64,000 bases of DNA from a phage: the sequence record PZ540767.1; one strand, 5' to 3'. The position numbers and the translations under genes are program-made. This document shows positions 4,863 through 52,098 of the stretch, one piece after another (position 1 is the first letter of the stretch; each line of letters opens with the position of its first letter). Under the pieces are notes generated by a model. It saw only the letters and a program-made list of their open reading frames with translations, had not been told where the DNA came from and made no database searches.

Positions 4863-5288
4863 ATGGCTGGATTATCGATGTATCCAAGTCTGTGGGATCA
4901 GGGGTCTATGTCCCCATCTCTAGACTCTCTGAGTTCTGGTTTTACCAACTCAGCAAATACTTTTAACAATACGGCCCTTACTGGTTCAGGTGGTTCAGGT
5001 AGTTTCCTGGATAGTATCCTGGGAGGCTCTGGTGAAATGTCTGGTTTGCAGATGGGCCAGCTTGGTCTGGGGGGTGTAACCAGTTTGCTTAATGGTTATC
5101 TTGGTTTCCAGAACCTGGGCCTTGCTAAGAAACAATACCAGTCTCAGCTTGACCAGTTTAATAAGCAGTGGGATGCCAACAAGAAGTTAACCAATGCTTC
5201 TCTGGCAGACCGTCAGGCTGCTCGTGTTGCAAGTAACCCTAATGCATATCAGTCTGTTGATGACTATATGAAAAAATATGGGATCTAA
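4863..5288 (+). CDS. Gly/Ser-rich small virion-module protein (141 aa)
   Basis: ORF, tight spacing in late operon; GSGGSGSF low-complexity stretch. Confidence 0.55.
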   Translation: MAGLSMYPSLWDQGSMSPSLDSLSSGFTNSANTFNNTALTGSGGSGSFLDSILGGSGEMSGLQMGQLGLGGVTSLLNGYLGFQNLGLAKKQYQSQLDQFNKQWDANKKLTNASLADRQAARVASNPNAYQSVDDYMKKYGI

Positions 5289-5291
5289 ACC

Positions 5292-6368: not shown

Positions 6369-9300
6369 TGAGGTTACAATCTGGGTACTCCACAATACTA
6401 AGGAATACTCAGATGGCTGGTAACTCATCTCCTCTGGACAAGTTTCTTGTCCCACAACAGGTAACAGGTCAGGAAGCTGCTCAGGCACTTCCTGCACCTA
6501 CCCAACCAACTATCGCCCAGCGTGTGAATGATGCTTCTACTCGTATCCTGAATAACCTCACAGGACAGGGTATGTATCCTACAGAAGAAGGCGAGATTGC
6601 TCGACTCAAACGAATTAATAACGAACAGTCGGCATATGCTAAAGAAGTAGCTGCAAAAGATTCAGATTACGGTTGGTCTTCTACCAACTTCTTAGATCCT
6701 GAAACGTCTTCATTGACTGATCGTACAGCTTCTACCTTTGTTAACTATGGCAAAGCTCTTACTGATGCTGTTAATGGTCTTGCAGGCAAAACAGATAAGA
6801 CTTTCAAAACACTGGGTAATGTGCTGGATCAGGCTTCTATTCCTAACGATGCACTGGATGCTTATCGTCGTGTGCAAGCTGGTAAAGGCACCGAAGCTGA
6901 TAATGCCCTGTTAGATCGTCAGGGTGCCTGGTGGACACAGCCTATTGAAGTAAATCAATATGGTGTACCAGAGATGGGTAACCAGACTCTTCGTCAACGT
7001 CTGGATGCTATCAACGAACGTCAGAAAACCCAAAACCAGAGTAGCTATGACAATCTTGAGAAACTAGCTAACCCTGTTCAAATGCAGCAAGCTGCTGCTG
7101 ATATTGAGAAATCAATTGAAGGTAAATCAGGACTTGATAAATTTGCTGCTGGTTTAGCTGCTATTGCTCGTAACCCTGGTGCTGCTGGTCAGACTATGGT
7201 GGAGTCTGCTCCATACATGGTTGGTGGTATCCCGGGTATGCTTGCTTCCTCTGCTATGCAGGGTGGCTCAGTATTGTCTCAGTATCTGGATACCCAACGT
7301 AAAGCTTCTGATGGTCAGATCCCTACAGCTAAAGATGTAGCTATCGGTACTGGTTTGGGTGTTGTTGATGGTGCTCTGAACTTTGCAGAAAGTATCATTA
7401 ACCGTACTGCTATGCTTCCAGGATCTAAAGTATTACCTGCCGGAGTTGCTGATCGTCTGGTGAACGCAGCACAGCGCATCGCACCACGCAGCTCTACGGC
7501 TGCTGCTGCTCTTGCGCGTGTGACTGCTCCTACCCTTGACCTTGCTAAGAATGCCTTAACTGAAGGTCTGGTATCTGGTGCTCAAAACCAGATTGAGGAG
7601 AACTATGCGAAGGGTAAAAATGAATGGGATACCAAAGGTAATGATGTTGCTTTCTTCCAGGGGATTGCTGCTGCTACTGGTTTTGGTGCTCCTCGTGCTG
7701 CACTTAGTACTGCTGGTGAAGTAGCTAATACTGCTGCTCAGGCTATGCAGAAACGTACTGAAGCACAAGATCCTGTAGGCCAAGCTGCTCGTAATACCAC
7801 CCCAGAAGACTTAATGAATCCACAGTCAGAAGGATATAACCCAGCTGCTGCAATTCGTCGTGCTGGTATGGAGTGGACTCGTAACACTGATGCTACTACT
7901 GATGAACAAAAGGCTGAGATTCAATCTCAGGCTCAGTCAGCTATGGATGCTGCACAGAATGATCACCAGAATAACCTGGATATGATTAACCAGAGGGCTA
8001 CTGCTGAACGTACTCTTGCTGACGCTGGTAAGTTTATTCCTGCTATTCAGGAGAGACTGGATCAACTTAGTAATGATCCTAATGCAGATCCTGATGCTGT
8101 TAATCAGTTACAAACCATTCTGGCTCAACAGACTGAAGCTCGTGATGCTGCACAGCAACAACTGGATGCTATGCCTTCTCAGGAGGAACTGGCACAGTCT
8201 GCTACCCGTTCTGCTGAAGTACTGGATCAGGCTAAGTCTGAGTTTGGTAAGTTCTCGTCAGCTACTGGTATGAATACCAATACAGCTAAACCAGAGAACC
8301 CAACAGCTTCTGACATTATCAGCCACCCAATGTCTTATACCAATGAAGACCTGCAAGAGTTTGTGCGTAATGCTCCTGCTAATGCTACCCCTGCTGAATT
8401 GGGTACGCTTCGTGCATTAGCTGATGCCAAAGTTGCAGAGAATGCTGTTAAGACTGGTTCTAAGGTTAATAGTGAGATCTTCAAATCCACTTCTAATAAC
8501 CTGTCACTGGGTGATTACCAACAGGGTATTAACACTGCTGTACAAGCTGGTGATACTAACCGTATCCAATCCCTGATGACTGGTATCAACAACTTTGAAA
8601 CTTCCCATACTGCTAAAGCAGATATTGCTCAACAGTACCTTAATGAAGCTAAACAGAATGGTAAGTCTTACCAGATCCTGAAAACTTCTAATGGCTGGGA
8701 GTTAAATACTGGCAAACGTCTGGATGCTAAAGCACAGGCTAAGAATGGTGGCTTTACTATCCACAAAGGCTCTACTGGTCTGGTTAACAATATTGTTAAT
8801 GAGGCCAAAGCTATTACAGCCACTCGTCAGTATATGGAAGGCATTGCTACCCCATCTACTAACCAGAATGTGACTGGCTCGACTGAGCAAGTAGCAAGCC
8901 CGGAGGCGCAGCCCGAGGGTGCAGCTACTGTAGCAGGAGAGACAGGAGCACAAGAACAACAAGCACAACCAACAATCAGCCCACTGACCACACGAGATAT
9001 TCGTGCAATGGATCAGGCAACGCTGGAAAAGGTTATGGCTACTACTCAGCAGGCTATGTCTTCTGACACTAATCCTGTACTGGCTCGTAACCTGGATGCA
9101 CTTGACCGTGAGTGGACTCGCCGTGCTGATGTGGCTACTAACCAGAATCGTGGTGTTGATGCTCCTCACCGTAAACTGGATGACTCCTTTAAGCCTAAAG
9201 CTCAGGAGAATGAGATCCAGCGTTCACAGGCTGAGACTACTACTCAAACTGAGCACACCCAGGCTGACATTGACAATGAGTCTACTGGTTCAGAATCTCA

Positions 9301-12300
9301 ACAAACTGCCCCAGTTAACGTAGATGATGTTGTTACCAACACTGATACTTTGACTGAGACTCAACAAGATAATGTAGCTCATGGTGCTCTGAGTATCTTT
9401 GGTAAAGTTGGTGAGTCCCTGAAAGCTCTGCGTGAGAAAGCTTTGGCTGAACCTAAAGGCTTACAGAACCTTGTGCTTACTGGTTTCAACCAGCGAGTTC
9501 GTCCAGGTTTTGGTAGCCCACTGGTAGCAGTGAAAGACTTTATCAATACTCTGAAAACTGCTGTGGATACTGGTAGCTTCACTGAAGTTAACCGTTTCCT
9601 GAAACAGCATATCAGTGAGTCGAAAGCTGAAGGTGCTAAACAGAAAGCTCTGCTGAAACAGTTTGTGGAATTCCATGATCACATCACAGCTAACCTGGAT
9701 AACATCATCCGTACTAAAGCCCCTGAGTATCGTTATCAGGACTTTGCTCAGTTTATCTTGGATGAGAATGGTAACTTTGACTCCAATACTAAAACTGGTA
9801 TTGCAGCAGGTATCTTCTCCTGGCTTGGTGAGAATGGGGATAAGATGTTCCTGAACCAGAGTGAAGTAGCTAAAACTCTGCGTATCAAAGAAGATCAGTT
9901 AACTCCACAAGCCATGTCTCGTATGGCTGATATTGGCTATCGCCAAGACTTGATCATGTCCCAACTTGGTCAACGTATTTATCAGGCTATGGGCTTTGCT
10001 AAACGTGCTGACGTTGATCCTAACCGTGCCAGCAAATTGCAGAATGCTCTGGGTGCTTATGCTCTCCATGCCATGTATTCCAATGGCTATATGGAACAGT
10101 CTTTAATGACTGCTAAAGAGTACTTCGATCTGCAAACCATGGGTCTGGATGAACAATCAGCTAAAGAAGCTGCACAAGCTTTCCAGAATGACTTTGGTGT
10201 TTCCCCTAACGATGCCAAGCACAAGATTGTGTTTAGCCGTCCTGCACGTAACTTTGATGCAGAAGGTAAACCAGTAGCTATTGAAGCTATCTCTGACATT
10301 AAGAATGGAATGAAAGATACCCGTTCTCTCATGTCTAAGCTGTTCGGTTATGATCCTGCTGTACGTGAGGTTCTGACCACTAAGCCTGCTGGTTTCAAAC
10401 AGAAAGTCTTCGGTAAAATGAATCGTGAAGTTCCTTCTGTTTTGGCTGCTCGTATCAGCAAAGCAATGCAATATGACTACACCATTGATCAGGGTGTAGT
10501 GAATGCTATGCGTACTATGTCCACTGTAGATAATGCTGCTCTGCAACATATCTTTGGTGTACGTACTGATGCTGATGTGCCCAATGAAATGGAGATCTTC
10601 AAGAAAGGACGTGAAGCCAAGAATGCTGATATCCAACGTTCTATGGAAATGGGTTTAGACTTTGCTAACCGTAGGGGTACTAACCCATTCTGGATGCCTA
10701 TGGAAGTCTGGACTAACCAACGTATTGGTGATCTGGCTTCAGAGTTCAACCCACAGGGTTCCAAAGTACACCGTGCTATGGGTGGCTTGAGTGCTCACCA
10801 GGTAGAGATTTCTGTAGCCCGTAATGCTCCTGTGCTGGACGCAGATGGTAAGCCTACTCAGTATGGCCTGTTCCTTGTATCCCTGGCTCAGGGTATGGAA
10901 GAAGCTCCTGTAATTGGTGCTGATGGTAAGAAACTGAAGTCTGTTGATAAGCAGACCTATGCTACCTTCTTACCTGCTTTCCAGAATTACCTGCGTAAAC
11001 CAGAGAACATTAAGGCTGTACGTGCTATGCAGAAAGTGATCGCTGGTTCAGCTACTACTGCTGATACCAACGTCATTAAGAATGCTGTGGCTGAGTATGG
11101 TATGAATGGTCAGTCTTTTGCTGCCCTGCATAACCTGGCTCAGTATGCTACTGCTCTGGAATCTGGTAAGTCTTCTGTTAAGCTGCTGGCTCAAATGGAA
11201 TCGGACGGTGTTACTAACGGCCCTATCCTGACTAACATCCTGAATGGCTCTGCTGACTTCGATCTACTGAAGCGTGGTGGTATTTATCGTGAAGGTGACA
11301 ATATTACCAACATGCCTACTTATCGTGAGTTGGGTGGTCAGGATTACTACGAGCTGCTGGGTGATGCTATGCGTCAGCATTGGGCTGATTACAAAACCAA
11401 TGCACCTGCTAGTCAGCAAGGTCAGATTCAGGCTCTGGAATATTTCTCTACTGGTTATGGTGCTCGTTCTAAGGCCAAGACTCTGGCTACCCCATTCAAC
11501 TACTCTGCTGGTATTCCAGCACTGAAAGCTGCTATGGGCCGAGCTACTGTAGAGGATGTTTACTCTAAGATTGGTTCCCTGATCCCACTGGCTAAAAGCA
11601 ATAACAAAGCAGACTTTGCCAAGGCTTATGCTGAGGTGAGTAAAAACCTTTCTGTACTCCTGGGTCAGAAAGTAAATCTGCCACGTACTGCTGATGGTCT
11701 GGTTAAGTTCAGCCTTAACCCGGCTCAAACTAAACGCATCATTGATGTGGATTCTCAGACTCGCGGTGTTGCTACAGAGACTGCTGTTAATGAGGTTGCT
11801 GCTGACTTCATTGCATCTCGTGATGCTAATACCAGTCTGGTTAACACAACCTTTACCCTGGCTAACCTTCGCTACAATGCTGCTAAAGCTGCACTGCTGA
11901 AGAAGCGTATTGCTGAGGGTAAAATCCCTGTGGATGCTAAAGGTGCTCCATTGGAAGGACTCACTCAGGCAGATCTGGATAAGCTATCCCGCATGATTCC
12001 TAACATGCCTTCTGCAACTGGTGTTCTGTCTGAGAATACCAAAGCTTCTGGTTACCCAATGGCTAAGGTGGAGAAAGCTTTTACTGCTAAGTCTCCTGCC
12101 ACCAGCATTGATATCTACTTCAAAGAAGCTGCTAACCCTAAACCAGCAATGGATGCTAATGGGATGCTGCTGAGTCAAGGTCTGGTAGGTGGATACAAAT
12201 CTACCCAGTCTACTGTGACTGAGACTAAGCTGACTAACCCTGGTGTTGCTATGGGTGCTAACGTTACTCAGGGTACTGATGCTGCAATCAGCTCTGATGT

Positions 12301-15300
12301 AATCAGCAAGATCGAAAGCCAGAACGTGCATGATGCTAACATCCTGTCTCCTGACAATGTGCTGAAAGGTGCTCGTATCCAGAACAAAGCTATGTTTGAT
12401 GCTGTGGTTTCTTATCATCCTCAACATCTGGCTGCTTCTGCACTGCTGACTGAAGTTCGTAGTCTGGCTGGTGCTAACCTGTCTACCAACGACAAGGTTG
12501 CAGCGAAGAAAGCTCTGGAAGCCATGAAGACTAAGATCCTGGGTAAAGACTTCAAGGGCAACATGAAAGCTGCTCTGAACACTATCCTTAACCAGGCATA
12601 TGATCGTGACATTAAGAAACTGGAGACTCTCTCTGAAGTCTATGCTGTTAACCAGTATGGTACTGAGGGGGGTGAATACCTGATCACTGATACTGATCGT
12701 AAGAAAATTGGTGATGAGATTGCACGTCTGAAACGTAGTCGTGCTGCTGGCTTACAACGTATCTCTGCTATGTTCTCTAAGGGTAATGCCCCAAAGGCTG
12801 AGGCCAACCAGTATCCTGATAAGATGAGACAATACCTGTATGAGGCTTCGGCCTCTACAGGCTCTGTGTCAGCTTCTGAGGTGATGGCTCGTACCAAAGG
12901 TAAGTTTGCTAACCCAGTATATAACGAACTCCACAATCTCATTTCTGGTTTGATTCCAGCTGATGCTGTGGTGAACGTACTGGATGGGCAGACTATGCCT
13001 AAGAATGTTAAGGGGCAGTCACTGCCCCAGAACCGTGATGCCATTGCATGGTCTTATCAAGATAAAAACACTGCACAGGTTAACCTGTCACTCAGCAAAG
13101 AGGCTTCACCTGAAGTCTTGCTGCATGAACTGACTCACATTGCTCTGGGACGTGCAATTGCTACTGCTGATTCAAATCCAAAAGTAAAAGCTGTACTGGC
13201 CCGTACAGAGAAGCTAATGGGTAGAGTGACCAAGCTGGTTTCAGCTGATCCTCAATTGACTCAGAAGTTTGCCCCTGCTTTGGCTAACGTGGATGAATTT
13301 ATCTCCTGGGGTATGACTAACCCAGAATTCCAACGTTACCTTGATACCATCACTGGTGTGCCTGAAATCTCAGGTCGTAACCGTGGATGGTTGGGTACTG
13401 CCTTTAAACAGTTTGTGGATCAAATGTCAGGCATCTTTGCTGCTGTAACTGGTCGAGCTATTAATGCTCGGGTTACTACTGCTCTGGAAGCTCTGACCTT
13501 CGATACTGCACATCTGGTTCAGGCTATTAATCCTACTGCTATTGAGAGTCCTGTATCTTCTATCAGCCACCCTATGAGCAACACTAACAGTGCTGCTGAT
13601 CAGGTAGCTAAGTTTAGCCATGTGGATATCTTTGATAACCTGGCTTCAACAGGTGGCAAGACTAACTCAGCACAGTTCACAGGTAACCTCCGTAATGTAA
13701 TATCCACTGTGGCGGATCAGCTTTACGGTGCTTTAGGCTCCAGAGTCACCCAGAATGCCAATGAGAATTATACTCCTGGTCAAGTCTGGAATGAGGCTGT
13801 AGCCACTGGGAAAGCCCCTGTCAGCACCGAAGCACTGAGCAATGGGTTTGTACTGACTAATCAGGAAGCCTTTGCTGTGGAGGCCATTGAGGCTGCTGTA
13901 TCTGAATCTCTGGCTTCTGGTTTCACTTCACCAGTTAACCGGGAGATTCGTCGTACTTGGCAAGCTGCTAAACAATCCCTGAAACCAGAAGACTTCCATA
14001 ATGGAAACTGGAATCAGGCAACTCAAGCAGAAAAACGAGCTGCTCAACAGAAATGGAATTATCTGTTTGATGTAACGAATGACTCTGGTGAGTCCCAGCA
14101 TCTGTCTCGTTTCGTTGCTATGGCTATTGGGCATGAAGACACCAGTAACTTACTTGGCTTCCAGATGGAAGATGGTAAGGACTCTGGTAATACTGCCTTT
14201 GAACAGGCTACTGCTTACTTTAACCAGGCTGTTAATACAGTCTCTGGCATGTTGACCAATACCCATCAAGGACAAGCTGCAAATGCTCGTGCTCAAGCAC
14301 TAGCTGAAAAGCTGATCCAGATTGAACTTAAGAACCGTGATACCACCATGAATATTCTTACTGGTGGGATCGACAAAGTAGAGAATGCCTTAGATACGGC
14401 TGCTGCTAAGTCTAAACAGTTCCTGGGTAAAATCGTTAAAGCTACTGGTATTGATCAGTCCTCCAACAATGCTCTGAATGCTATGGGCAAAGTTGCAGGA
14501 TTGGCTGCTCGTGATCAGCTGGGTAGCCTGAAAGAAACTATTAAAGAGTTCCGGGACTTTAATGCCCCTAGTACTCCAGAAGGTTCTCTGGCTTCCATTC
14601 TGACTGAAGCAACGAATGCTGATGATGTTCGTGCTCTGCATGAATCTCTGTTACGTTCTACTAAACGTATTGAACAGGATCGTGCAACCTTAGCTGCTGT
14701 TACTGCTAAGAACTTAAATGAGATGTTTGATAACAATGGTCAAGACCTGACTAAAGAAGATCGTACAGCAATGACTTACTCACTGCTTCGTACTGATCTT
14801 CAGTCTGTGTTGCACATTGAAGGTATGAACCTGAATAACTTACATAAACTGGTTTCTAATACTGGTTATCGTAAGCAGCAGATCAATAACCTTGAGAAAA
14901 CCATTAGCCAGTATGCTAACGGTAATGATAAGATCATTCGTGCCAAGGCTCTGGGATTCTGGATGGCTACTGGCAGAAATACCCTGGGACGTGATTTAGT
15001 TCTGAATGCAAAAGCTATTGCTACCGGAGCTGCTACTCACTATTCCACAGTAGGTATCGAACCGACTCTTGATGAAGTGAACGCCATTGATGCTCTGGCT
15101 TCAATGTACGCTCTAAGCTACACCAAGACCGAAAACCGTGTTCGCACTGCTGCTGTAATGGAACGTGAGCTTGCACGAGGTAAAGACAATGGCATTAAAA
15201 TGCTGATGGCTACTTATGCGAACCTGATTGAGGATTCTGCTAATACGCTGTTTGCTGGTAACCAGTTGTCTCGCATTAAAGGCTATTTGCCTGAAGATAC

Positions 15301-17050
15301 CAATCCTCATCATGACTTACGTGCGGTTGAGTCGGGGAGTGCAGATGAAGCAGCACTGGTGAACATGGGATACCAAAAAGTATCCCCACTGTCCCAGGAC
15401 TCTTTGTCAAAACACTCTGGACGTGTACTGTATGTGACCAAAGAGAATGGGTATCAACGAACCGTCTCTGGTACTTTCAGTTTAACTGGAAGCCAGCGTA
15501 AAGGTTCTTCCCTAAGTGGGGATCGTGCTGTTGCTGATCGTGTTCGAGCTGACGAGTTAGAACAGTTAAGGCAAGCGTCCTATGCAGACGTGCGAGGGCG
15601 TGAAGCACTGTCCCACACTGCCTTTGATCCTACTCAGATCCAGGATAACCATGTAGTGCCTGTATTAAGCACTGATGGTCATATCATGGACTTCCGTTAC
15701 ATGGCTACCCACAATACTCGTGACACGTTCCTTGATCGTAATAATGACTTTGCTGACCTTGTTGGTCGTCTGGCTGGTCAGAATATCGATAAGGGTGATG
15801 CCCCAAGCCAGAATGCTAAGATCCTGGAAGCTCTGCATGAAGACTCTAAGGCTAATATCCTGAAGAATCCTAATGCTTACTTTGAGATTGGGCCTAATGC
15901 ACCTACTGAGCGAGGACGTGAGATCTGGGCAATGATGCCTTATGAAGCACGTACTAAAGCTACTTCTCTGTGGGGTGCTGATCGTATGTATATTCGAAAC
16001 GATCTGGTTAACCTTACTTTTGGCTTCCGTAAGTATTCACTGGCTAACATTTTTGATGTTGATCCAGAACAGCGTAATATTGCTCAGGGTGTTGCTGCTG
16101 GTTTACTTGAAGCTGCTTTTGGTGATAAGGCTAAAGCTTATGTAATTAAGGGTGAGCGTGGCATTCAGGAATTTATGCAGTCCTATAAGGACGTGATCGT
16201 TATTCGTAACCTGAAAACCCAGTTCAGTAATATTATGTCTAATACTGCTCTACTGGCTGCTTATGGCGTTAACCCGGTACGTATGGTTAAAGATATCCGT
16301 ACTGCTCTGGTTGCTGGGATTGACTACCGTAAACAGTACTCGCTGCTACTCAAGTATCAGCAACAGCAACGTGCTGGTATTGGTAACTTTGCTCAGATGG
16401 AGTCCCTGATCAATGAGACGCAGGATCGCTTGAATGCTAACCCTCTGGCTAAGTTTATTCAGGCAGGTATGATGCCTACCATCGTAGAAGACGTTCAGCC
16501 TGATGCTGATGGTTACACTTATGGTTCTAAGATCCGTAAGAAATTTAATGAGGTATCTGCCCATCTGCCAGCTTCTGCTGTAACAGCTGCTCGCTGGGCT
16601 GTGATTGATAAAGGTACTGCACCTCATAAATTCTTAAGTGATGCTGCTCAGTTCAGTGACTTTGCTGCTAAGTATGCTCTGTATAAGCACCTGACAGAAC
16701 ATGCCCGAGATCGCCTGAGTCATACTGAGGCTTTACAACGTGCATCTGATGCTTTTGTTAACTATGACATTCCAGCTACAGCTACTCGCCAATATCTGGA
16801 TGATATGGGGATTACCATGTTTACGAAGTATCGTGTTCGTATCCAACGTGCAATGTTCTACTTGATGGATAAACGTCCAGCATCTGTTATGGCACATATG
16901 GCAATTACAGGGCAGTTTACTCATGCACCTGATGCTATGGAGCCACTGTTTGCACGTAACTTAGGTAACCCATTCACACCTTCAGTATTGCAGGGTGGGA
17001 GTTTGTTGAATGTCCCAATGCCTTGGAACTTATTCAGAATGGCATACTAA
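6368..17050 (+). CDS. Giant virion-associated RNA polymerase (vRNAP-like, 3560 aa)
   Basis: Single uninterrupted 10.7-kb ORF; size class matches N4 vRNAP (~3500 aa); sits at the end of the structural operon; followed by a strong terminator. Confidence 0.8.
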   Translation: MRLQSGYSTILRNTQMAGNSSPLDKFLVPQQVTGQEAAQALPAPTQPTIAQRVNDASTRILNNLTGQGMYPTEEGEIARLKRINNEQSAYAKEVAAKDSDYGWSSTNFLDPETSSLTDRTASTFVNYGKALTDAVNGLAGKTDKTFKTLGNVLDQASIPNDALDAYRRVQAGKGTEADNALLDRQGAWWTQPIEVNQYGVPEMGNQTLRQRLDAINERQKTQNQSSYDNLEKLANPVQMQQAAADIEKSIEGKSGLDKFAAGLAAIARNPGAAGQTMVESAPYMVGGIPGMLASSAMQGGSVLSQYLDTQRKASDGQIPTAKDVAIGTGLGVVDGALNFAESIINRTAMLPGSKVLPAGVADRLVNAAQRIAPRSSTAAAALARVTAPTLDLAKNALTEGLVSGAQNQIEENYAKGKNEWDTKGNDVAFFQGIAAATGFGAPRAALSTAGEVANTAAQAMQKRTEAQDPVGQAARNTTPEDLMNPQSEGYNPAAAIRRAGMEWTRNTDATTDEQKAEIQSQAQSAMDAAQNDHQNNLDMINQRATAERTLADAGKFIPAIQERLDQLSNDPNADPDAVNQLQTILAQQTEARDAAQQQLDAMPSQEELAQSATRSAEVLDQAKSEFGKFSSATGMNTNTAKPENPTASDIISHPMSYTNEDLQEFVRNAPANATPAELGTLRALADAKVAENAVKTGSKVNSEIFKSTSNNLSLGDYQQGINTAVQAGDTNRIQSLMTGINNFETSHTAKADIAQQYLNEAKQNGKSYQILKTSNGWELNTGKRLDAKAQAKNGGFTIHKGSTGLVNNIVNEAKAITATRQYMEGIATPSTNQNVTGSTEQVASPEAQPEGAATVAGETGAQEQQAQPTISPLTTRDIRAMDQATLEKVMATTQQAMSSDTNPVLARNLDALDREWTRRADVATNQNRGVDAPHRKLDDSFKPKAQENEIQRSQAETTTQTEHTQADIDNESTGSESQQTAPVNVDDVVTNTDTLTETQQDNVAHGALSIFGKVGESLKALREKALAEPKGLQNLVLTGFNQRVRPGFGSPLVAVKDFINTLKTAVDTGSFTEVNRFLKQHISESKAEGAKQKALLKQFVEFHDHITANLDNIIRTKAPEYRYQDFAQFILDENGNFDSNTKTGIAAGIFSWLGENGDKMFLNQSEVAKTLRIKEDQLTPQAMSRMADIGYRQDLIMSQLGQRIYQAMGFAKRADVDPNRASKLQNALGAYALHAMYSNGYMEQSLMTAKEYFDLQTMGLDEQSAKEAAQAFQNDFGVSPNDAKHKIVFSRPARNFDAEGKPVAIEAISDIKNGMKDTRSLMSKLFGYDPAVREVLTTKPAGFKQKVFGKMNREVPSVLAARISKAMQYDYTIDQGVVNAMRTMSTVDNAALQHIFGVRTDADVPNEMEIFKKGREAKNADIQRSMEMGLDFANRRGTNPFWMPMEVWTNQRIGDLASEFNPQGSKVHRAMGGLSAHQVEISVARNAPVLDADGKPTQYGLFLVSLAQGMEEAPVIGADGKKLKSVDKQTYATFLPAFQNYLRKPENIKAVRAMQKVIAGSATTADTNVIKNAVAEYGMNGQSFAALHNLAQYATALESGKSSVKLLAQMESDGVTNGPILTNILNGSADFDLLKRGGIYREGDNITNMPTYRELGGQDYYELLGDAMRQHWADYKTNAPASQQGQIQALEYFSTGYGARSKAKTLATPFNYSAGIPALKAAMGRATVEDVYSKIGSLIPLAKSNNKADFAKAYAEVSKNLSVLLGQKVNLPRTADGLVKFSLNPAQTKRIIDVDSQTRGVATETAVNEVAADFIASRDANTSLVNTTFTLANLRYNAAKAALLKKRIAEGKIPVDAKGAPLEGLTQADLDKLSRMIPNMPSATGVLSENTKASGYPMAKVEKAFTAKSPATSIDIYFKEAANPKPAMDANGMLLSQGLVGGYKSTQSTVTETKLTNPGVAMGANVTQGTDAAISSDVISKIESQNVHDANILSPDNVLKGARIQNKAMFDAVVSYHPQHLAASALLTEVRSLAGANLSTNDKVAAKKALEAMKTKILGKDFKGNMKAALNTILNQAYDRDIKKLETLSEVYAVNQYGTEGGEYLITDTDRKKIGDEIARLKRSRAAGLQRISAMFSKGNAPKAEANQYPDKMRQYLYEASASTGSVSASEVMARTKGKFANPVYNELHNLISGLIPADAVVNVLDGQTMPKNVKGQSLPQNRDAIAWSYQDKNTAQVNLSLSKEASPEVLLHELTHIALGRAIATADSNPKVKAVLARTEKLMGRVTKLVSADPQLTQKFAPALANVDEFISWGMTNPEFQRYLDTITGVPEISGRNRGWLGTAFKQFVDQMSGIFAAVTGRAINARVTTALEALTFDTAHLVQAINPTAIESPVSSISHPMSNTNSAADQVAKFSHVDIFDNLASTGGKTNSAQFTGNLRNVISTVADQLYGALGSRVTQNANENYTPGQVWNEAVATGKAPVSTEALSNGFVLTNQEAFAVEAIEAAVSESLASGFTSPVNREIRRTWQAAKQSLKPEDFHNGNWNQATQAEKRAAQQKWNYLFDVTNDSGESQHLSRFVAMAIGHEDTSNLLGFQMEDGKDSGNTAFEQATAYFNQAVNTVSGMLTNTHQGQAANARAQALAEKLIQIELKNRDTTMNILTGGIDKVENALDTAAAKSKQFLGKIVKATGIDQSSNNALNAMGKVAGLAARDQLGSLKETIKEFRDFNAPSTPEGSLASILTEATNADDVRALHESLLRSTKRIEQDRATLAAVTAKNLNEMFDNNGQDLTKEDRTAMTYSLLRTDLQSVLHIEGMNLNNLHKLVSNTGYRKQQINNLEKTISQYANGNDKIIRAKALGFWMATGRNTLGRDLVLNAKAIATGAATHYSTVGIEPTLDEVNAIDALASMYALSYTKTENRVRTAAVMERELARGKDNGIKMLMATYANLIEDSANTLFAGNQLSRIKGYLPEDTNPHHDLRAVESGSADEAALVNMGYQKVSPLSQDSLSKHSGRVLYVTKENGYQRTVSGTFSLTGSQRKGSSLSGDRAVADRVRADELEQLRQASYADVRGREALSHTAFDPTQIQDNHVVPVLSTDGHIMDFRYMATHNTRDTFLDRNNDFADLVGRLAGQNIDKGDAPSQNAKILEALHEDSKANILKNPNAYFEIGPNAPTERGREIWAMMPYEARTKATSLWGADRMYIRNDLVNLTFGFRKYSLANIFDVDPEQRNIAQGVAAGLLEAAFGDKAKAYVIKGERGIQEFMQSYKDVIVIRNLKTQFSNIMSNTALLAAYGVNPVRMVKDIRTALVAGIDYRKQYSLLLKYQQQQRAGIGNFAQMESLINETQDRLNANPLAKFIQAGMMPTIVEDVQPDADGYTYGSKIRKKFNEVSAHLPASAVTAARWAVIDKGTAPHKFLSDAAQFSDFAAKYALYKHLTEHARDRLSHTEALQRASDAFVNYDIPATATRQYLDDMGITMFTKYRVRIQRAMFYLMDKRPASVMAHMAITGQFTHAPDAMEPLFARNLGNPFTPSVLQGGSLLNVPMPWNLFRMAY

Positions 17051-18869: not shown

Positions 18870-19610
18870 TTACATGGTAAATGGATCATCACCAGTGGTG
18901 GCATTGTCAGATCCTGGGTTGAAACCAGCACCTGCAAAGTTACCACCCGGAGCACCAGCGTTACCCTGACCAGTCACTTCTTTGAAGCGATCCCATACCT
19001 GGCCTTTGTTAGCTTCGAGCCACTTATCTTTGAAAGTAGCGACTTCCTGCTTACCACGAATTTCCTGTTCAGTCTTATCGTCTTTACTACGGAAGACTTT
19101 TGCAATGGCATTGATCTCACGAGCTTCATTGATCGGCTCATACTGACCATCATCGTTGCGTTTCTGCTTGTTCTCTTTAATACGCTGGATAGCGAAGGTG
19201 ATCGGTTTACCACACAGATCCACCAGCATAGGAACATCAGTCGGAACTTCGGCTTTCTTCTCGAAGTTATACAGGTTGATGGTTTTGGTTTCTGGTTCCA
19301 GTTTAACCAGAGGCTTACCGCAGGCCAGCAGGCAGATCGAGTTTGCTTTCAGGAAGTTCTTGGTGTACTCGCCTTTATCGTTGACGACTTTACCCTGACC
19401 GTTCATGAACCAGATCTGCTCTTTGTAGATGCCGTGATCATCTTCGAATTCGATGTTCATGGCTTGAGCTTTGGACTTTTCCGACTTGGTGATGTAAGCC
19501 AGTTTGATGATGCCCGGATAGACGTCAGTGTCACGAATGCGCATACCAGTGCCCAGGGTATCTTTCTCTACTGCTTTTTCTGCATCATAGTTAAAATCAA
19601 AATAAGACAT
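18870..19610 (-). CDS. ssb: Single-stranded DNA-binding protein (phage SSB-like)
   Basis: 246 aa with Gly-rich linker (GNAGAPGGNFAGAGFNPG) and acidic tail 'GDDPFTM', reminiscent of SSB C-terminal tails; position in replication/recombination module. Confidence 0.5.
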   Translation of the reverse strand: MSYFDFNYDAEKAVEKDTLGTGMRIRDTDVYPGIIKLAYITKSEKSKAQAMNIEFEDDHGIYKEQIWFMNGQGKVVNDKGEYTKNFLKANSICLLACGKPLVKLEPETKTINLYNFEKKAEVPTDVPMLVDLCGKPITFAIQRIKENKQKRNDDGQYEPINEAREINAIAKVFRSKDDKTEQEIRGKQEVATFKDKWLEANKGQVWDRFKEVTGQGNAGAPGGNFAGAGFNPGSDNATTGDDPFTM

Positions 19611-19611
19611 G

Positions 19612-20142
19612 TTAGTTACCTTTTGTTTCTAGGCCATGGTTCTCATGGAAGCCTAATTCAATTAATTTCTCAGCCCGGCAGATAGCTGCTTCATTGGCTG
19701 TTTTGAAGGTACGTTGCCATACCTTCTTACGGTTCATCGTGATTTCTGCTACATAGCGATCACGACGTTTGCAGTACCAAATACCTTGGTGTCCAGTAAT
19801 GGTATTGCTGATTGCACCCCTGTTTCGCATATTCTGAAGCATCGTAGTGTCCTTCAGATTTACTGCCCTGTTGTCATCACGAATATGGTTATCGTGGTCT
19901 ACGTGCCCTTTAGGCCACTGCCTGTTGTGCATGTAGTAACAGATGATATGCTCTCCATAGGTAGTGCCGAAGATTGTTATATGGCGGTAGCCGCTAGCCT
20001 TGTGGAGACTCCCAGCGCGACTACCGATAACAATTCTCTTATTACAAGACTTGCTAATCCAAGTAAGATGTCCAGTAAGAGCATCATATTTTAGTACCTT
20101 TTCAAGCATTTCAAGGGTGAGATCTTTTTTGGGAATTTTCAT
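19612..20142 (-). CDS. HNH homing endonuclease with AP2-like DNA-binding domain
   Basis: 'HVDHDNHIRDDNRAVNL' HNH motif; C-terminal 'GIWYCKRRDRYVAEITMNRKKVWQRTFKTANEAAICRAEKL' AP2-like; free-standing between ssb and ATPase. Confidence 0.7.
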   Translation of the reverse strand: MKIPKKDLTLEMLEKVLKYDALTGHLTWISKSCNKRIVIGSRAGSLHKASGYRHITIFGTTYGEHIICYYMHNRQWPKGHVDHDNHIRDDNRAVNLKDTTMLQNMRNRGAISNTITGHQGIWYCKRRDRYVAEITMNRKKVWQRTFKTANEAAICRAEKLIELGFHENHGLETKGN

Positions 20143-20870
20143 GCGTAATACTCATGCAAACGGTCTAAGACCAACTGCATGTCATTATCGATGAAGGTTT
20201 CCTTGATATCAAATAAGTCCTCTGGGCCACGTAAACGCTCGTTAATGGTGTTCTTAGTAACCTGGGTCTGGTAAACATGCTTGTACCCGAGCATCTCCTC
20301 GCGCTCGTTAATGTGAAGTAACCCGTTCTGGTATTCTTCCAGATCCGTAAGCTTCACTTTCTTACAGGCAATAACCAGACTGAAGTATGACTCAATGCCC
20401 TGGTTCTTCAGTGCCCCTTTAACAGGTACACAGGTTTCACGAACCATGTCATCGTTAACTTCATCCTTCGTGTGAGCTAAGAAGATCACGTTCTTGGTAG
20501 ACGTGGCTACCAGCACCTGCATCAGGTGTTTGAACTGCTGGGCAAATTGGCCCCATGCAGCTTGGGTATTCGAGCTAGTAAGTACGAGCTGGCTCTCTAC
20601 CATGTCCATGTAGTACGTCAGTGAATCAACTACAATGGTGTGAATATTCGGCTGGGTTTCAGCCCACTGAAACGCTTTAGGGAGGATATCCCAACGTGCA
20701 ATGGTACGTTCCAGGAAACCTGATTTGAACGGCAGCTTTTTACCTGATTCACAGTTAAGGTACAGCACACCTTCCGGGTTCTTCAGGTTCTTCAGTGACC
20801 GTGATTTACCACTTGCTGATTTACCTACAAGCAGTACAAGGTTGTCATTAACGCTGATTTGATCGGACAT
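20139..20870 (-). CDS. RecA-fold P-loop ATPase (Sak4/AAA_24-like recombination ATPase)
   Basis: Walker A 'GKSASGKS', Walker B-like 'IVVDSL'; start set to internal ATG 20870 (MSDQ...). Confidence 0.5.
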   Translation of the reverse strand: MSDQISVNDNLVLLVGKSASGKSRSLKNLKNPEGVLYLNCESGKKLPFKSGFLERTIARWDILPKAFQWAETQPNIHTIVVDSLTYYMDMVESQLVLTSSNTQAAWGQFAQQFKHLMQVLVATSTKNVIFLAHTKDEVNDDMVRETCVPVKGALKNQGIESYFSLVIACKKVKLTDLEEYQNGLLHINEREEMLGYKHVYQTQVTKNTINERLRGPEDLFDIKETFIDNDMQLVLDRLHEYYA

Positions 20871-20939
20871 AATTACCTCTTTTGAAATGCCCCCGAAGGG
20901 GCAAACCCACAAAGGGAACGGAAGTTCCCCAACACACAA

Positions 20940-50300: not shown

Positions 50301-50384
50301 TAATCCTCCAGATTTTCTGAATAATTAGGGAATAGTGTGAATAACTTTCACAAACCTGGCTTACATGAAACCAGGTTTAGGAAG

Positions 50385-51221
50385 TTACTTAACAGGGACG
50401 AAAGGTACAGAAGCACCTGGCACCATAGTGGTAGGCATTACACCGTTCCACTTAGCAATGGCATCCAGTTGAATTACGTTCGGGTTAGCAGCGAGTGCTT
50501 CACCACGCAATTTGATAGCATCAGCTTCACCTTGGGCACGGATACGTGCAGAGTCGGATTCACCACGAGCTTTCGCACGTTCTTTCTCCGCTTCAGCTTC
50601 AGATTGTTTGATCTCTTGTTCACGCTGCAATGTAACCTGGTTTGCAGTTACTTTGGCGTTAATGGAAGCAATGACGGTTGGTGGGTATTCAGGCTTGCCC
50701 ACATAGGACAGACTGATCACCTCAATACCAACTGGGGTCATTTCAGCCTGGATCATACTGAGTGCTTGGGTCAAGAGATCAGATTTACCACCATCAATGA
50801 ACTTGTCAGTAGTCATACGTGAGGCCAGACGGTTCAGGCTGTCAGCAATCTTCTGTTGCAGATCGCTGTCGGTGATTTCATCCACACCTTTACGATAGGT
50901 CTGGAAGACTGTCGCTACTTTAGTCGGGTTGACTTTATAAGCCACACCGATGTGATAGCCGATGGTTGTACCGTCAGACATTTGGAACGTAAAGATCCCG
51001 TCGTAGGTTTTCATCTGCTTGAAGGTCGGGAACGTGTACAGGTCTTCGTTCCAGCCGATCCAGTAACGGCCTACACCTTTCACTTGCTGTTCAACACCCT
51101 TCTCGTCACCGAGACGGTTAACGATAATACCCACGTTACCTGGTTCGACACGCTCATAGCAGCCTGTCAGCGAGGTCATTGCAACGACTGCCAGAATGCA
51201 GCCCATGATAAATTTACGCAT
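50385..51221 (-). CDS. SPFH/band-7 (stomatin/prohibitin-like) lipoprotein
   Basis: Start at internal ATG 51221: signal peptide with 'LTGC' lipobox; SPFH-like core and Ala/Glu-rich coiled coil (QREQEIKQSEAEAEKERAKA...). Confidence 0.6.
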   Translation of the reverse strand: MRKFIMGCILAVVAMTSLTGCYERVEPGNVGIIVNRLGDEKGVEQQVKGVGRYWIGWNEDLYTFPTFKQMKTYDGIFTFQMSDGTTIGYHIGVAYKVNPTKVATVFQTYRKGVDEITDSDLQQKIADSLNRLASRMTTDKFIDGGKSDLLTQALSMIQAEMTPVGIEVISLSYVGKPEYPPTVIASINAKVTANQVTLQREQEIKQSEAEAEKERAKARGESDSARIRAQGEADAIKLRGEALAANPNVIQLDAIAKWNGVMPTTMVPGASVPFVPVK

Positions 51222-51417
51222 GTTTGATCTTCTTTTTGATTTGACGATAAACGAAAGTGACCACCAGAGCAGGCCACACCAGAGCACCAGCAATGCCGAT
51301 GAACACGAGGATGGTATCTTTAGCTGATACCAATGAAGGCAATATGCCTCCATACAGGACACCTGACAGGAGTAAGATCACTACTCCATACAGGTAGAGT
51401 TTCAGATATTTATTCAT
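51214..51417 (-). CDS. Small two-TM membrane protein, partner of SPFH protein
   Basis: 67 aa, two hydrophobic helices, KKKIKHA tail; stop overlaps SPFH start. Confidence 0.45.
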   Translation of the reverse strand: MNKYLKLYLYGVVILLLSGVLYGGILPSLVSAKDTILVFIGIAGALVWPALVVTFVYRQIKKKIKHA

Positions 51418-51736
51418 CTGTTTTGCGATTCCTTAAACCAGGGATTGTGTAGGCTTTGGAGATATACTCCCCAATATAGAAATACTCATGAATTTCACTT
51501 TCAATCATTCGTACTTCAGAGCCTGCATCAGTCAGTACGGTGTAACAGGGTTCTGGCTTAAAGTCGGCAATGCTCATTGTGGATCCGATTTTGGTAATGA
51601 AAGCATTACCTAACCGACGTCCATCTTTTGTGCATAGCTGACGATGTAATTCCAGAGTCCCGGACGGATCGTAACGTTCAGCCCAGTCAGGCAGGACTTC
51701 ACGTTTAAACTGTTCGTCATACTCTTCGTCTGTCAT
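51410..51736 (-). CDS. Hypothetical protein (108 aa)
   Basis: ORF with ATG; stop overlaps next start. Confidence 0.45.
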   Translation of the reverse strand: MTDEEYDEQFKREVLPDWAERYDPSGTLELHRQLCTKDGRRLGNAFITKIGSTMSIADFKPEPCYTVLTDAGSEVRMIESEIHEYFYIGEYISKAYTIPGLRNRKTDE

Positions 51737-52098
51737 GAAGCCTCCTTTAAAGCTTTGTCACGACGCTTACAGTTTTCTTTCTGGCTTACCATTTCCAGAT
51801 GTGCAGGGTTACAGCACAAGCGATTACGACACTTATGGTCTATCTGCTTCTTGGATGGGATATAGCCATAGAAGTGGGTATATACAACGAGGTGAGTAGC
51901 TACAGTCTGGCTATTGAGACTCATACGCCCATAGCCTCCACCACGTCCAGTCCCTGAATCAGGGCCAGTCCATATGAAGCAAGGGCTAGGTAAGCCTTCA
52001 AGTTTAAAGCCCAGATCTCTGATATCTACTCGTTCGAATACACGCTGGAGTATTTCTTCCCTACGATTGGGAAGTTCCTCCAGTATCTTGTCGAGCAT
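51733..52098 (-). CDS. HNH endonuclease
   Basis: 'QIDHKCRNRLCCNPAHLEMVSQKEN' HNH/zinc motif. Confidence 0.65.
   Translation of the reverse strand: MLDKILEELPNRREEILQRVFERVDIRDLGFKLEGLPSPCFIWTGPDSGTGRGGGYGRMSLNSQTVATHLVVYTHFYGYIPSKKQIDHKCRNRLCCNPAHLEMVSQKENCKRRDKALKEAS

What the first reader, a model, noticed from the sequence alone, without database searches (positions are those of the whole stretch)
19612..20142. Free-standing HNH-AP2 homing endonuclease between ssb and the recombination ATPase, with a second HNH gene at 51733-52098
Two HNH endonuclease genes sit between conserved replication/early genes. Such genes are usually mobile and mark sites of intron-less homing; their presence or absence is expected to vary among close relatives and they can cleave related co-infecting genomes.
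Basis: partly seen in the sequence, partly recalled or inferred. Interest (0 to 1): 0.4.

Follow-up and report, generated by a model that had tools for sequence, protein, structure and literature searches.

The report
Two fixed HNH endonuclease genes
Both genes are real HNH endonuclease genes of a Klebsiella N4-like phage, but they are old, fixed residents already annotated in published relatives rather than variable mobile inserts, so the finding is ordinary.

Summary
The window is an N4-like Klebsiella phage (Schitoviridae, Efbeekayvirus), about 97% identical to FBKp27 and P184.

**Observation.** Both ORFs are confirmed. HNH1 (19612-20142, minus strand, 176 aa) has an I-HmuI-like HNH_3 catalytic domain and an AP2-like DNA-binding domain. 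It sits exactly between the Sak4-like ATPase and ssb. HNH2 (51733-52098, minus strand, 121 aa) is a small Cys-containing HNH_3 nuclease in the early/middle region.

**Interpretation.** It is only partly right.
- Neither gene varies among close relatives. Both are present at the same place in all 11 GenBank genus members, and in every close IMG/VR contig sampled at each locus.
- A pattern scan of IMG/VR and JGI metagenomes found no insert-free HNH1 allele with these flanks.
- HNH1 orthologues (39-99% identity) lie only at the Sak4|ssb junction. They mark one primase-tree clade (bootstrap 100) with a single loss, in phage Presley.
- HNH1 has co-diverged with its neighbours, keeps its catalytic residues, and has dN/dS of 0.04-0.19.
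- Insert-free junctions exist only in deeper relatives such as LIT1, Ka3 and most metagenomic N4-likes.

**Homing ancestry.** It is nevertheless supported. Family members sit in group I introns in Sak4 (L089) and in RNAPII (Erwinia phage MIF8), and other HNH families occupy the same junction polymorphically.

The orthologues are already annotated and discussed in the literature.

The parts
19612..20142 (-). HNH1: free-standing HNH(HNN)-AP2 endonuclease gene, 176 aa
   Evidence: ORF; Pfam HNH_3 and AP2, PHROG 99; family profile hits I-HmuI 1U3E at E 4e-7; two-domain AF2 model, pLDDT 82.
19825..19950 (-). HNH_3 catalytic domain of HNH1 (residues 65-106; catalytic Asp82-His83 at 19894-19899)
   Evidence: Pfam stretch. 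D82, H83, N91, N95, L96, N104 and N107 are invariant in 13 N4-like family members and in 41 database homologues.
19657..19794 (-). AP2-like DNA-binding domain of HNH1 (residues 117-162: three strands plus a helix), followed by the conserved ELGFHENHG tail
   Evidence: Pfam AP2 below threshold at 24.1 bits and in 6 of 13 members. The model has strands 121-124, 129-136, 139-146 and helix 149-162. Foldseek hits AP2 structures 7ET4, 3IGM and 1GCC.
20139..20142 (-). ATGA overlap: the HNH1 start codon overlaps the Sak4 stop codon (probable translational coupling)
   Evidence: Sequence read directly. The same abutting or overlapping arrangement is seen in CB1, XC38, At2 and MIF8.
20139..20870 (-). 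Sak4-like ssDNA-annealing ATPase (N4 gp44-like), upstream neighbour and probable target gene of the HNH1 family
   Evidence: Pfam AAA_24 and phrog_124. Relatives annotate the 732-bp version. The gene is split by HNH-bearing inserts in L089.
18870..19610 (-). ssb (N4 gp45-like), downstream neighbour. Its conserved ribosome-binding motif ACAAAAGGTAA lies inside the last codons of HNH1 (19613-19626).
   Evidence: phrog_743; sequence; the same motif precedes ssb in L159 and L167.
51733..52098 (-). HNH2: small single-domain Cys-containing HNH_3 nuclease gene, 121 aa
   Evidence: ORF; Pfam HNH_3 at 59.8 bits, phrog_1872; 87-99% identical in all 11 genus members; dN/dS 0.07-0.15.
51772..51900 (-). 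HNH_3 domain of HNH2 (residues 67-109; motif QIDHKCxNRxCCNPxHLE...N)
   Evidence: Pfam stretch; motif conserved in 34 IMG/VR homologues.
50395..51750 (-). Variable gene cassette directly downstream of HNH2 (small ORFs D1 and D2, and an SPFH/Band_7 gene at 50385-51221)
   Evidence: Homology to close relatives breaks inside the HNH2 3' end (about 51750-51793) in L224, L225 and L226, or after D1 in FBKp27. Band_7 domain.
50339..50394 (-). Conserved 56-bp element with a 7-bp inverted repeat (AACCTGG/CCAGGTT) where homology resumes in all relatives; function unknown
   Evidence: blastn pieces; sequence.

Best explanation
These are two free-standing His-Me-finger (HNH_3) endonuclease genes that are long-established, fixed parts of this phage lineage.

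HNH1:
- It is a two-domain enzyme. The N-terminal part is an I-HmuI-like HNN-type catalytic domain (Asp82-His83, with Asn91, Asn95, Asn104 and Asn107). The C-terminal part is an AP2-like DNA-binding domain with an ELGFHENHG tail.
- The gene was inserted once, exactly between the Sak4 stop codon and the ssb ribosome-binding site, in the ancestor of a deep Schitoviridae clade. That clade covers Efbeekayvirus, SABI, Cbunavirus, Kc283, MIF8 and Acinetobacter Exceevirus-type phages.
- Since then it has been inherited vertically under purifying selection, with one loss in phage Presley.
- It has no spacer of its own and is probably translated by coupling to Sak4 (ATGA overlap).
- It descends from homing endonucleases. 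Relatives are intron-encoded in Sak4 and in the RNAPII gene of other N4-like phages.
- Inferred, not shown: it still acts as a site-specific nicking or cleaving enzyme on related co-infecting genomes that lack it, probably in or near Sak4/ssb. That would favour its own region in mixed infections, and such a competitive benefit would explain why it stayed intact after fixation.

HNH2:
- It is a compact nuclease without a separate DNA-binding domain.
- It is conserved in many N4-like genera and in some unrelated phages.
- It is fixed in this genus at the upstream edge of a hypervariable gene cassette.
- Its cellular role is not established. The likeliest reading is a free-standing endonuclease of the same selfish or competitive kind.
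For: Identity and domains.

Fixation among close relatives:
- HNH1 lies between ssb and Sak4 in all Klebsiella relatives (100% query coverage in 12 of the 13 records, 86-97% nt; the GADU21 record starts inside the region). Protein identity is 88.6-99.4% across those relatives; the GADU21 record begins inside the gene, so only residues 1-95 were compared there, at 97.9%.
- The same holds in 8 IMG/VR loci.
- HNH2 is in all of them too.
- There is no insert-free allele in 2.9 M viral contigs or 241 M metagenome records. The anchors are validated in 10 of 11 relatives.

Site specificity and single origin:
- Every homologue at or above 39% identity lies at the Sak4|ssb junction; in the one exception, L089 (39%), it lies inside Sak4 itself. 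Homologues below that level are in unrelated contexts.
- In the primase NJ tree, HNH1-positive taxa form one clade with bootstrap 100, and Presley is the only empty member.
- The HNH1 tree shows no supported conflict.
- HNH1 identity (47-62%) tracks primase (49-70%) and Sak4 (44-75%) identity.

Selection:
- dN/dS is 0.04-0.19, with dS similar to the flanks.
- Catalytic residues are invariant.
- GC content matches the genome.

Insert-free state in deeper relatives: Ka3 has a 17-bp gap and LIT1 a 26-bp gap (by the census; 14 and 26 bp by the records' own CDS coordinates). 64 of 126 junctions examined have gaps under 150 bp.

Homing ancestry:
- L089 Sak4 is split in three, with an HNH1-family ORF in the second insert and Intron_gpI hits at E 4e-7.
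- MIF8 has a group I intron at 94.4 bits followed by an HNH-AP2 ORF inside RNAPII.
- L159 and L167 are an insert/no-insert pair at the same junction.

No intron RNA surrounds either window gene.

Literature: the CB1_71 orthologue is listed as a homing endonuclease (PMC6027278). HNN-AP2 is described as a known phage endonuclease class (PMC2248197).
Against: - No biochemical evidence of cleavage or of a target exists.
- Comparing the Sak4 region homologous to the L089 intron site showed no diagnostic difference between HNH1-positive and HNH1-negative lineages. The proposed target is therefore unsupported by sequence.
- Classical homing-endonuclease theory predicts decay after fixation. Long-term purifying selection fits a co-opted function for the phage equally well.
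- Trees are neighbour-joining only, and the HNH1 tree is weakly resolved at depth.
- HNH2 identity is nearly flat (52-74%) whatever the genome distance. For example it is 73.7% to Pseudomonas phage CRC2, whose Sak4 is only 37% identical. This could mean horizontal transfer or simply strong constraint, and I could not separate the two.
Confidence: 0.7

Rival explanations
1. Actively mobile homing endonucleases: both genes are recent, sporadically distributed inserts that currently home into insert-free alleles of close relatives.
For: - The family has homing credentials: an I-HmuI match and intron-borne relatives.
- Other HNH genes come and go in the same neighbourhoods. L159 and L167 differ at the same junction. 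GADU21 has an extra HNH next to HNH2.
- CB1 differs from CB3 and CB4 by two HNH genes (PMC6027278).
Against: - Both genes are present at identical positions in all 11 genus genomes and in every close metagenomic contig sampled at each locus (7 for HNH1, 5 for HNH2), and HNH1 also in the sister genera.
- No empty allele was found in large collections.
- dS equals that of the flanks, and the phylogeny is congruent.
- Composition is fully ameliorated.
Confidence: 0.1
2. Domesticated nuclease: HNH1 has been co-opted into the phage's own replication-recombination module (primase, Sak4, HNH1, SSB, Gam-like, RuvC-like). For example, it might make nicks or ends that start recombination-dependent replication, and it is kept for that reason.
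For: - It is embedded in, and translationally coupled within, the replication/recombination operon.
- It has been retained with intact catalytic residues and low dN/dS across a deep clade.
- There is only one loss among the clade's 13 non-redundant lineages in the primase tree.
Against: - Most N4-like phages, N4 itself included, lack it and replicate normally. Empty junctions. N4 has no HNH genes: PMC3670811.
- Presley lost it.
- Other lineages carry unrelated cargo at the same junction: MazG-like, dUTPase_2 and other HNH genes. That marks the site as an accessory slot.
Confidence: 0.2
3. HNH2 is a packaging-associated HNH that assists the terminase, as in HK97-like phages.
For: Only its small size (121 aa) and its wide conservation across phage groups. 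The HK97-type system is recalled from my own knowledge (Kala et al. 2014), not read here.
Against: - HNH2 lies in the early/middle region between RNAPII and the ATPase/vWA genes, not beside terminase.
- In Vibrio VBM1 and Pseudomonas Skulduggery its homologues sit among small hypothetical genes with no terminase gene annotated in the 4-5 kb fetched on either side.
- N4 and XC38 lack it.
- It belongs to HNH_3, not the HK97 gp74-type HNH family.
Confidence: 0.05

Closest known systems
I-HmuI (Bacillus phage SPO1 intron-encoded HNH homing endonuclease, PDB 1U3E)
   Same: The catalytic domain is homologous. The HNH1-family profile matches I-HmuI residues 34-105 at E 4e-7, and it is the top Foldseek hit with probability 1.0. 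Both are HNN-type, lacking Cys dyads.
   Different: I-HmuI is intron-encoded and uses different C-terminal DNA-binding modules. HNH1 is free-standing and carries an AP2-like domain. I-HmuI's nicking activity is known from the literature and is untested for HNH1.
HNN/HNH-AP2 free-standing phage endonucleases (Magnani et al. 2004 class; Xanthomonas phages Xp10, OP1, Xop411; T1; T5; RB16/RB43)
   Same: Same two-domain architecture and motifs: the WP box, DH, DNR, NL, EN, then the AP2 domain. T1-type endonucleases are direct tblastn hits at about 40% identity.
   Different: In the Xanthomonas phages these genes are multi-copy, dispersed, variable in position and often degenerate (PMC2248197). HNH1 here is single-copy, at a fixed position, intact, and vertically inherited through a deep clade.
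Orthologues already annotated in relatives: FBKp27 gp09 'putative HNH endonuclease' and gp56 'endonuclease'; Pectobacterium phage CB1_71
   Same: 98-99% protein identity at identical positions for FBKp27. CB1 gp71 is 57% identical at the same Sak4|ssb position and is listed among the homing endonucleases of CB1.
   Different: None of substance. The window genes are the same genes in another isolate of the genus.
Free-standing homing endonucleases of T4-like phages (Seg and Mob proteins) and 'collaborative homing' of free-standing endonucleases with intron sites
   Same: An intergenic endonuclease gene lies next to a conserved DNA-metabolism gene, and a related endonuclease is intron-borne inside that same gene in another lineage (L089).
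   Different: T4 seg and mob genes are sporadic among close relatives (PMC2993671), whereas HNH1 is fixed. Cleavage, target and marker exclusion are untested here.

Membership tests
HNH_3 / His-Me finger endonucleases (Pfam PF13392) | Sequence match above the curated Pfam gathering score | tested here: met
   HNH1 scores 32.6 bits and HNH2 59.8 bits against a cutoff of 24.8. All 13 HNH1 family members match.
HNH_3 / His-Me finger endonucleases (Pfam PF13392) | Conserved catalytic His with preceding Asp and downstream Asn metal ligands (HNN/HNH motif) | tested here: met
   HNH1 residues D82, H83, N91, N95, N104 and N107 are invariant in 13 and in 41 homologues. The HNH2 motif IDHKC..R.C.NP.HLE...N is conserved in 34 homologues.
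HNH_3 / His-Me finger endonucleases (Pfam PF13392) | Metal-dependent DNA nicking or cleavage activity | not testable with these tools
   Requires purified protein and DNA substrates.
AP2 DNA-binding domain (Pfam PF00847), i.e. the HNH-AP2 architecture | Sequence match above the Pfam gathering score | tested here: inconclusive
   HNH1 scores 24.1 bits, below the 33.3 cutoff, at E 4.6e-5. 6 of 13 family members match at E below 0.01. Many database homologues carry a precomputed PF00847 hit.
AP2 DNA-binding domain (Pfam PF00847), i.e. the HNH-AP2 architecture | Three-stranded antiparallel sheet packed on one helix (AP2/ERF fold) | tested here: met
   The AF2 model has strands 121-124, 129-136 and 139-146 plus helix 149-162 at pLDDT 82-87. 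Foldseek hits TEM1 AP2 7ET4 (probability 0.97), PfAP2 3IGM, and AtERF1 1GCC (TM 0.61, rmsd 2.6 A). E-values are weak at 0.1-0.9.
Free-standing homing endonuclease gene (functional class) | Endonuclease ORF lying between, not within, conserved genes and not inside an intron or intein | tested here: met
   Sak4 and ssb are intact on either side. No group I intron signal surrounds either gene.
Free-standing homing endonuclease gene (functional class) | Sporadic presence or absence among closely related genomes, with an insert-free cognate allele | tested here: not met
   Both genes are present in all 11 GenBank genus members; HNH1 in all 7 further close IMG/VR contigs and HNH2 in all 5 fetched for its locus. 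No empty allele was found in IMG/VR or JGI metagenomes. Empty junctions occur only in distant lineages and in Presley.
Free-standing homing endonuclease gene (functional class) | Gene phylogeny incongruent with the host genome (horizontal spread) | tested here: not met
   For HNH1, the positive taxa are monophyletic in the primase tree (bootstrap 100), and the HNH1 tree has no supported conflict. For HNH2 the test is inconclusive: identity is flat at 52-74% regardless of genome distance, and about 69%-identical homologues occur in unrelated Vibrio myophages.
Free-standing homing endonuclease gene (functional class) | Homology to proven or intron-encoded homing endonucleases | tested here: met
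   I-HmuI match. L089 has an intron-associated family member inside Sak4. MIF8 has a group I intron at 94 bits plus an HNH-AP2 ORF in RNAPII.
Free-standing homing endonuclease gene (functional class) | Cleavage of the insert-free allele and biased inheritance in mixed infection | not testable with these tools
   Needs in vitro cleavage assays and co-infection crosses.
Terminase-associated packaging HNH (HK97 gp74 type), considered for HNH2 | Gene adjacent to the terminase/portal packaging module | tested here: not met
   HNH2 lies between RNAPII and the ATPase/vWA genes. Homologues in VBM1 and Skulduggery lie among small hypothetical genes.

The most novel reading that the evidence does not exclude
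HNH1 is a domesticated homing endonuclease. After a single ancient insertion at the Sak4|ssb junction it has been kept functional across a whole deep clade of Schitoviridae. The reason would be that it serves the phage, either as a weapon that cuts the Sak4/ssb region of competing N4-like phages lacking it, or as a nicking enzyme feeding the Sak4-SSB-RuvC recombination machinery. Together with its intron-borne relatives, it would mark Sak4 as a recurrent, family-wide endonuclease target.
Probability: 0.2. Interest if true: 0.45.

Novelty: already known. Interest (0 to 1): 0.2.

Why it matters
It matters little for discovery. The same genes are deposited and annotated as HNH endonucleases in FBKp27, Tribble_ER49, Halo_KS_7 and GADU21. 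The CB1 orthologue is discussed as a homing endonuclease in the literature.

The modest added value is evolutionary. HNH1 is an HNH-AP2 endonuclease that behaves like a stably inherited, selected gene rather than a transient selfish insert. Meanwhile, close family members in sister lineages are still intron-borne. That contrast makes the Sak4|ssb junction of N4-like phages a convenient natural system for asking how homing endonucleases persist after fixation.

For phage-therapy genomics of Klebsiella N4-like phages, the genes are harmless accessory nucleases.

Tried and rejected
1. **Target-site signature.** I aligned the Sak4 codons homologous to the L089 intron insertion site (the GIESYF region) across 60 lineages. 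I found no nucleotide difference separating HNH1-positive from HNH1-negative genomes, so no target could be inferred.
2. **Relic of HNH1 in Presley.** The 118-bp Sak4-ssb spacer shows no similarity to XC38, At2 or L077 HNH1 at protein or DNA level. It encodes a 30-aa hydrophobic peptide.
3. **NCBIfam.** No match for either protein.
4. **PDB sequence search for HNH2.** No match at E below 1.
5. **Control pattern.** My first positive-control pattern for the collection scan carried an extra base and found nothing. I replaced it with a local check showing both anchors match 10 of 11 close relatives, always 546 nt apart.
6. **Group I intron around the window genes.** None found, so an intron-encoded status is rejected for this window.
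7. **Third HNH gene.** Relatives annotate the vWA protein (window 46913-48094) as 'HNH endonuclease', but HNH1 and HNH2 profile searches of all window ORFs find nothing there.
8. **Compositional foreignness.** The GC and GC3 values of both genes lie within the range of their neighbours.
9. **HNH2 structure.** I did not predict a structure for HNH2 or build a joint HNH2/core-gene phylogeny. Its mode of inheritance at depth remains open.

Full report
**What the window is.** The 3560-aa ORF at 6368-17050 is a virion RNA polymerase. The region around the finding is 94-97% identical at nucleotide level to ten Klebsiella phages of the genus Efbeekayvirus (Schitoviridae), including FBKp27, P184 and Tribble_ER49, and 86% identical to Halo_KS_7. 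The window is therefore an N4-like Klebsiella phage.

- HNH1 (19612-20142, minus strand, 176 aa) matches Pfam HNH_3 above threshold and AP2 below threshold. It also matches PHROG 99 'HNH endonuclease'.
- It lies between ssb (18870-19610, phrog_743) and a Sak4-like AAA_24 ATPase (20139-20870), which is followed by the primase.
- HNH2 (51733-52098, minus strand, 121 aa) matches HNH_3 strongly, and phrog_1872.
- HNH2 does not sit between replication genes. Its neighbours are small early/middle genes of unknown function, between the RNAPII genes and the ATPase/vWA genes.
- No other HNH_3-type ORF exists in the window.

**Anatomy of HNH1.**
- A profile of 13 family members hits the catalytic domain of the SPO1 homing endonuclease I-HmuI (1U3E, E 4e-7).
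- D82, H83, N91, N95, L96, N104 and N107 are invariant in 13 N4-like members and in 41 database homologues. The enzyme is of the HNN type and has no Cys dyads.
- An AlphaFold model built from 41 sequences (mean pLDDT 82) has two domains joined by a low-confidence linker. The C-terminal domain has three strands and one helix.
- After I-HmuI, its best PDB matches are AP2 domains: TEM1 7ET4, PfAP2 3IGM and AtERF1 1GCC. Probabilities are high but E-values are weak.
- With AP2 hits in 6 of 13 members and precomputed AP2 domains on many homologues, the 'HNH-AP2' label is justified. This is a known class of phage endonucleases (PMC2248197).
- The HNH1 ATG overlaps the Sak4 stop codon (ATGA). Its own stop is one base before the ssb ATG, and its last codons overlie the conserved ssb ribosome-binding motif ACAAAAGGTAA.
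- There is no room for a promoter of its own. Translational coupling to Sak4 is inferred.

**Distribution among close relatives.**
- HNH1 is present at the same place in all 11 distinct GenBank genus members. Protein identity is 88.6-99.4% in ten of them. GADU21's record begins inside the gene, so only residues 1-95 were compared there, at 97.9%. It is also present in 7 further IMG/VR contigs.
- HNH2 is likewise present in all 11 genus members, at 87-99% identity, and in all 5 further close IMG/VR contigs fetched for its locus.
- I searched 2.9 million viral contigs and 241 million metagenome records for a Sak4 end joined to the ssb start within 0-30 bases, using this genus's flanks. Nothing was found.
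- As a control, the two anchors match 10 of 11 close relatives exactly, always 546 bases apart.

**Distribution at depth.**
- Every HNH1 homologue at or above 39% identity that I could retrieve lies at the Sak4|ssb junction of an N4-like genome; in the one exception, L089 (39%), it lies inside Sak4 itself. This covers 26 IMG/VR loci plus SABI, EK8, the Cbunavirus phages, Kc283, MIF8, XC38, At2 and nACB1. Homologues below that level are in unrelated phages.
- I examined 126 Sak4|ssb junctions. Of these, 64 have gaps under 150 bp, including Pseudomonas phages Ka3 (17 bp) and LIT1 (26 bp).
- In a primase neighbour-joining tree of 60 non-redundant lineages, HNH1-positive taxa form one clade with bootstrap 100. 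Acinetobacter phage Presley is the only empty member. Its 118-bp spacer shows no relic of the gene.
- The HNH1 tree has no supported conflict with the primase tree.
- HNH1 identity to the window (47-62%) falls between that of ssb (30-46%) and that of primase/Sak4 (44-75%) in the same genomes.
- Within the genus, dN/dS is 0.04-0.19 and dS is similar to the flanking genes. GC content is unremarkable.
- The simplest history is one ancient insertion, vertical descent under purifying selection, and one loss.

**Evidence that the family is nevertheless of homing type.**
- In L089, a distant N4-like contig, Sak4 is split into three pieces. The second insert carries a 39%-identical HNH1-family ORF and has sub-threshold group I intron hits (36 bits, E 4e-7). 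The first insert carries another HNH ORF and a weaker intron hit.
- In Erwinia phage MIF8, labelled Efbeekayvirus, a clear group I intron (94.4 bits, gathering score 50) followed by an HNH-AP2 ORF interrupts the RNAPII large-subunit gene. That gene is uninterrupted in the window at 55650-56924.
- The Sak4|ssb junction is also an accessory-gene slot in other lineages. It holds MazG-like genes, a dUTPase_2 gene, a lipoprotein, and phrog_374 HNH genes.
- L159 and L167 are about 88% identical in the flanks and differ by a 547-bp insert carrying such an HNH gene. Its ATG again overlaps the Sak4 stop.

**HNH2.**
- The protein has a very conserved core: W.G..SG.GRGGGY.RM...GQTVA.H....Y..GY.P.KKQIDHKC.NR.C.NP.HLE.V....N.
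- It is under purifying selection, with dN/dS of 0.07-0.15.
- It occurs in the same general region in many N4-like genera. It is absent from XC38, and N4 has no HNH genes at all (PMC3670811).
- Homologues about 65-69% identical occur in unrelated phages (Vibrio VBM1, Pseudomonas Skulduggery), among small hypothetical genes.
- Its identity to the window is nearly flat with genome distance. This may reflect constraint or horizontal transfer, and I could not separate the two.
- Homology between the window and several genus members breaks inside the last 13-20 codons of HNH2. It resumes at a conserved 56-bp element at 50339-50394.
- The genes in between differ from genome to genome. GADU21 carries a different HNH gene there.
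- HNH2 itself is constant, but it borders a hypervariable cassette.

**Mechanism.**
- Shown: both genes encode intact, selected His-Me-finger nucleases. HNH1 has a DNA-binding domain and is embedded in the replication/recombination operon.
- Inferred: HNH1 acts as a site-specific endonuclease on related genomes lacking it, probably near Sak4/ssb. That would give its bearer an advantage in mixed infection and so explain its retention.
- The main rival is co-option into the phage's own recombination-dependent replication. Weighing against it are the many N4-like phages that lack the gene, the Presley loss, and the accessory nature of the slot.

**Novelty.** The orthologues are annotated in the public records: FBKp27 gp09 and gp56, Tribble_ER49, Halo_KS_7 and GADU21. 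CB1_71 is listed among homing endonucleases in PMC6027278. HNH genes in N4-like phages are a recognised feature (PMC3670811). The finding is real but already known.

Noticed in passing
L089:3428-5968 (IMGVR_UViG_3300033072_000573): The Sak4 gene of a distant N4-like contig is split into three exons (3428-3550, 4522-~4905, 5720-5962) by two inserts. Each insert carries an HNH ORF (3756-4373 and 4995-5522) and a sub-threshold Rfam group I intron hit (27 and 36 bits). The second ORF belongs to the HNH1 family (39% identity).
   Followed up: partly
L229:11838-14056 (Erwinia phage MIF8, PP700702.1); window 55650-56924: The MIF8 RNAPII large-subunit gene is interrupted by a clear group I intron (Rfam 94.4 bits, L229:12747-12994) followed by an HNH-AP2 ORF (12055-12702). 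The window's orthologue (55650-56924) is uninterrupted, so the window holds the intron-less allele.
   Followed up: partly
L230:27708-29773 (Acinetobacter phage XC38, NC_055823.1): The RNAPII large-subunit homologue is in two pieces (aa 11-151 and 152-423), with an annotated 'endonuclease' gp86 between them. XC38 also has HNH genes next to its primase and DNA polymerase, but no HNH2 orthologue.
   Followed up: no
L159:5491-6037 versus L167:5733-5770: Two metagenomic N4-like contigs about 88% identical in the flanks differ by a 547-bp insert at the Sak4|ssb junction. The insert carries a phrog_374 HNH endonuclease whose ATG overlaps the Sak4 stop. This is a true insert/no-insert pair at the same site, for another HNH family.
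   Followed up: yes
L019:5783-6439, L020:4156-4674, L194:5739-6110, L185:2497-3162, L206:5623-6387, L174:5735-6145, L006:4707-5180: In other N4-like lineages the same Sak4|ssb junction carries MazG-like pyrophosphatase genes (L020 and L194 confirmed by phrog_229; L019 by resemblance), a dUTPase_2 gene in L185 and a similar untested ORF in L206, a putative lipoprotein in L174 (by inspection only), or an unrelated HNH in L006. It is a general accessory-gene slot.
   Followed up: partly
window 50339-51793: A hypervariable cassette lies downstream of HNH2. Homology to genus members breaks inside the HNH2 3' end and resumes at a conserved 56-bp element (50339-50394) with a 7-bp inverted repeat. The SPFH/Band_7 gene (50385-51221) and the small ORFs between are present, absent or replaced in relatives, and GADU21 has another HNH there.
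   Followed up: partly
window 46913-48094: The orthologues of this 393-aa protein are labelled 'HNH endonuclease' in the FBKp27, Halo_KS_7 and XC38 records, but 'putative metallopeptidase domain protein' in GADU21. My HNH profiles find nothing there, so the HNH label looks like a mis-annotation.
   Followed up: no
window 20871-20939: The mechanical ORF for Sak4 starts at a TTG at 20939 (266 aa). Relatives annotate the 243-aa version starting at the ATG at 20870, and homology to other phages begins there.
   Followed up: partly
PQ850623.1:38383-39931 (Escherichia phage RudolfBernhard_Bas96): The Sak4 homologue matches in two pieces spanning 1.5 kb, with a gene annotated 'restriction endonuclease' under the match. 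This is another possible endonuclease insertion in Sak4.
   Followed up: no
L226:3501-3854 (Halo_KS_7, PV026551.1); L222 (K17alpha62, OY979417.1): Halo_KS_7 has an intact 117-aa HNH2 ORF that is not annotated in the record. The K17alpha62 record's feature table is out of register with the sequence: rIIA, rIIB and DNA polymerase labels lie over the primase to ssb region.
   Followed up: no
window 19612-20870 and 51733-52098 versus Halo_KS_7 (L221, L226): Against the most divergent genus member, dS is lower for Sak4 (0.30), HNH1 (0.42) and HNH2 (0.19) than for adjacent genes (0.40-0.70). This suggests mosaic recombination in these regions.
   Followed up: no
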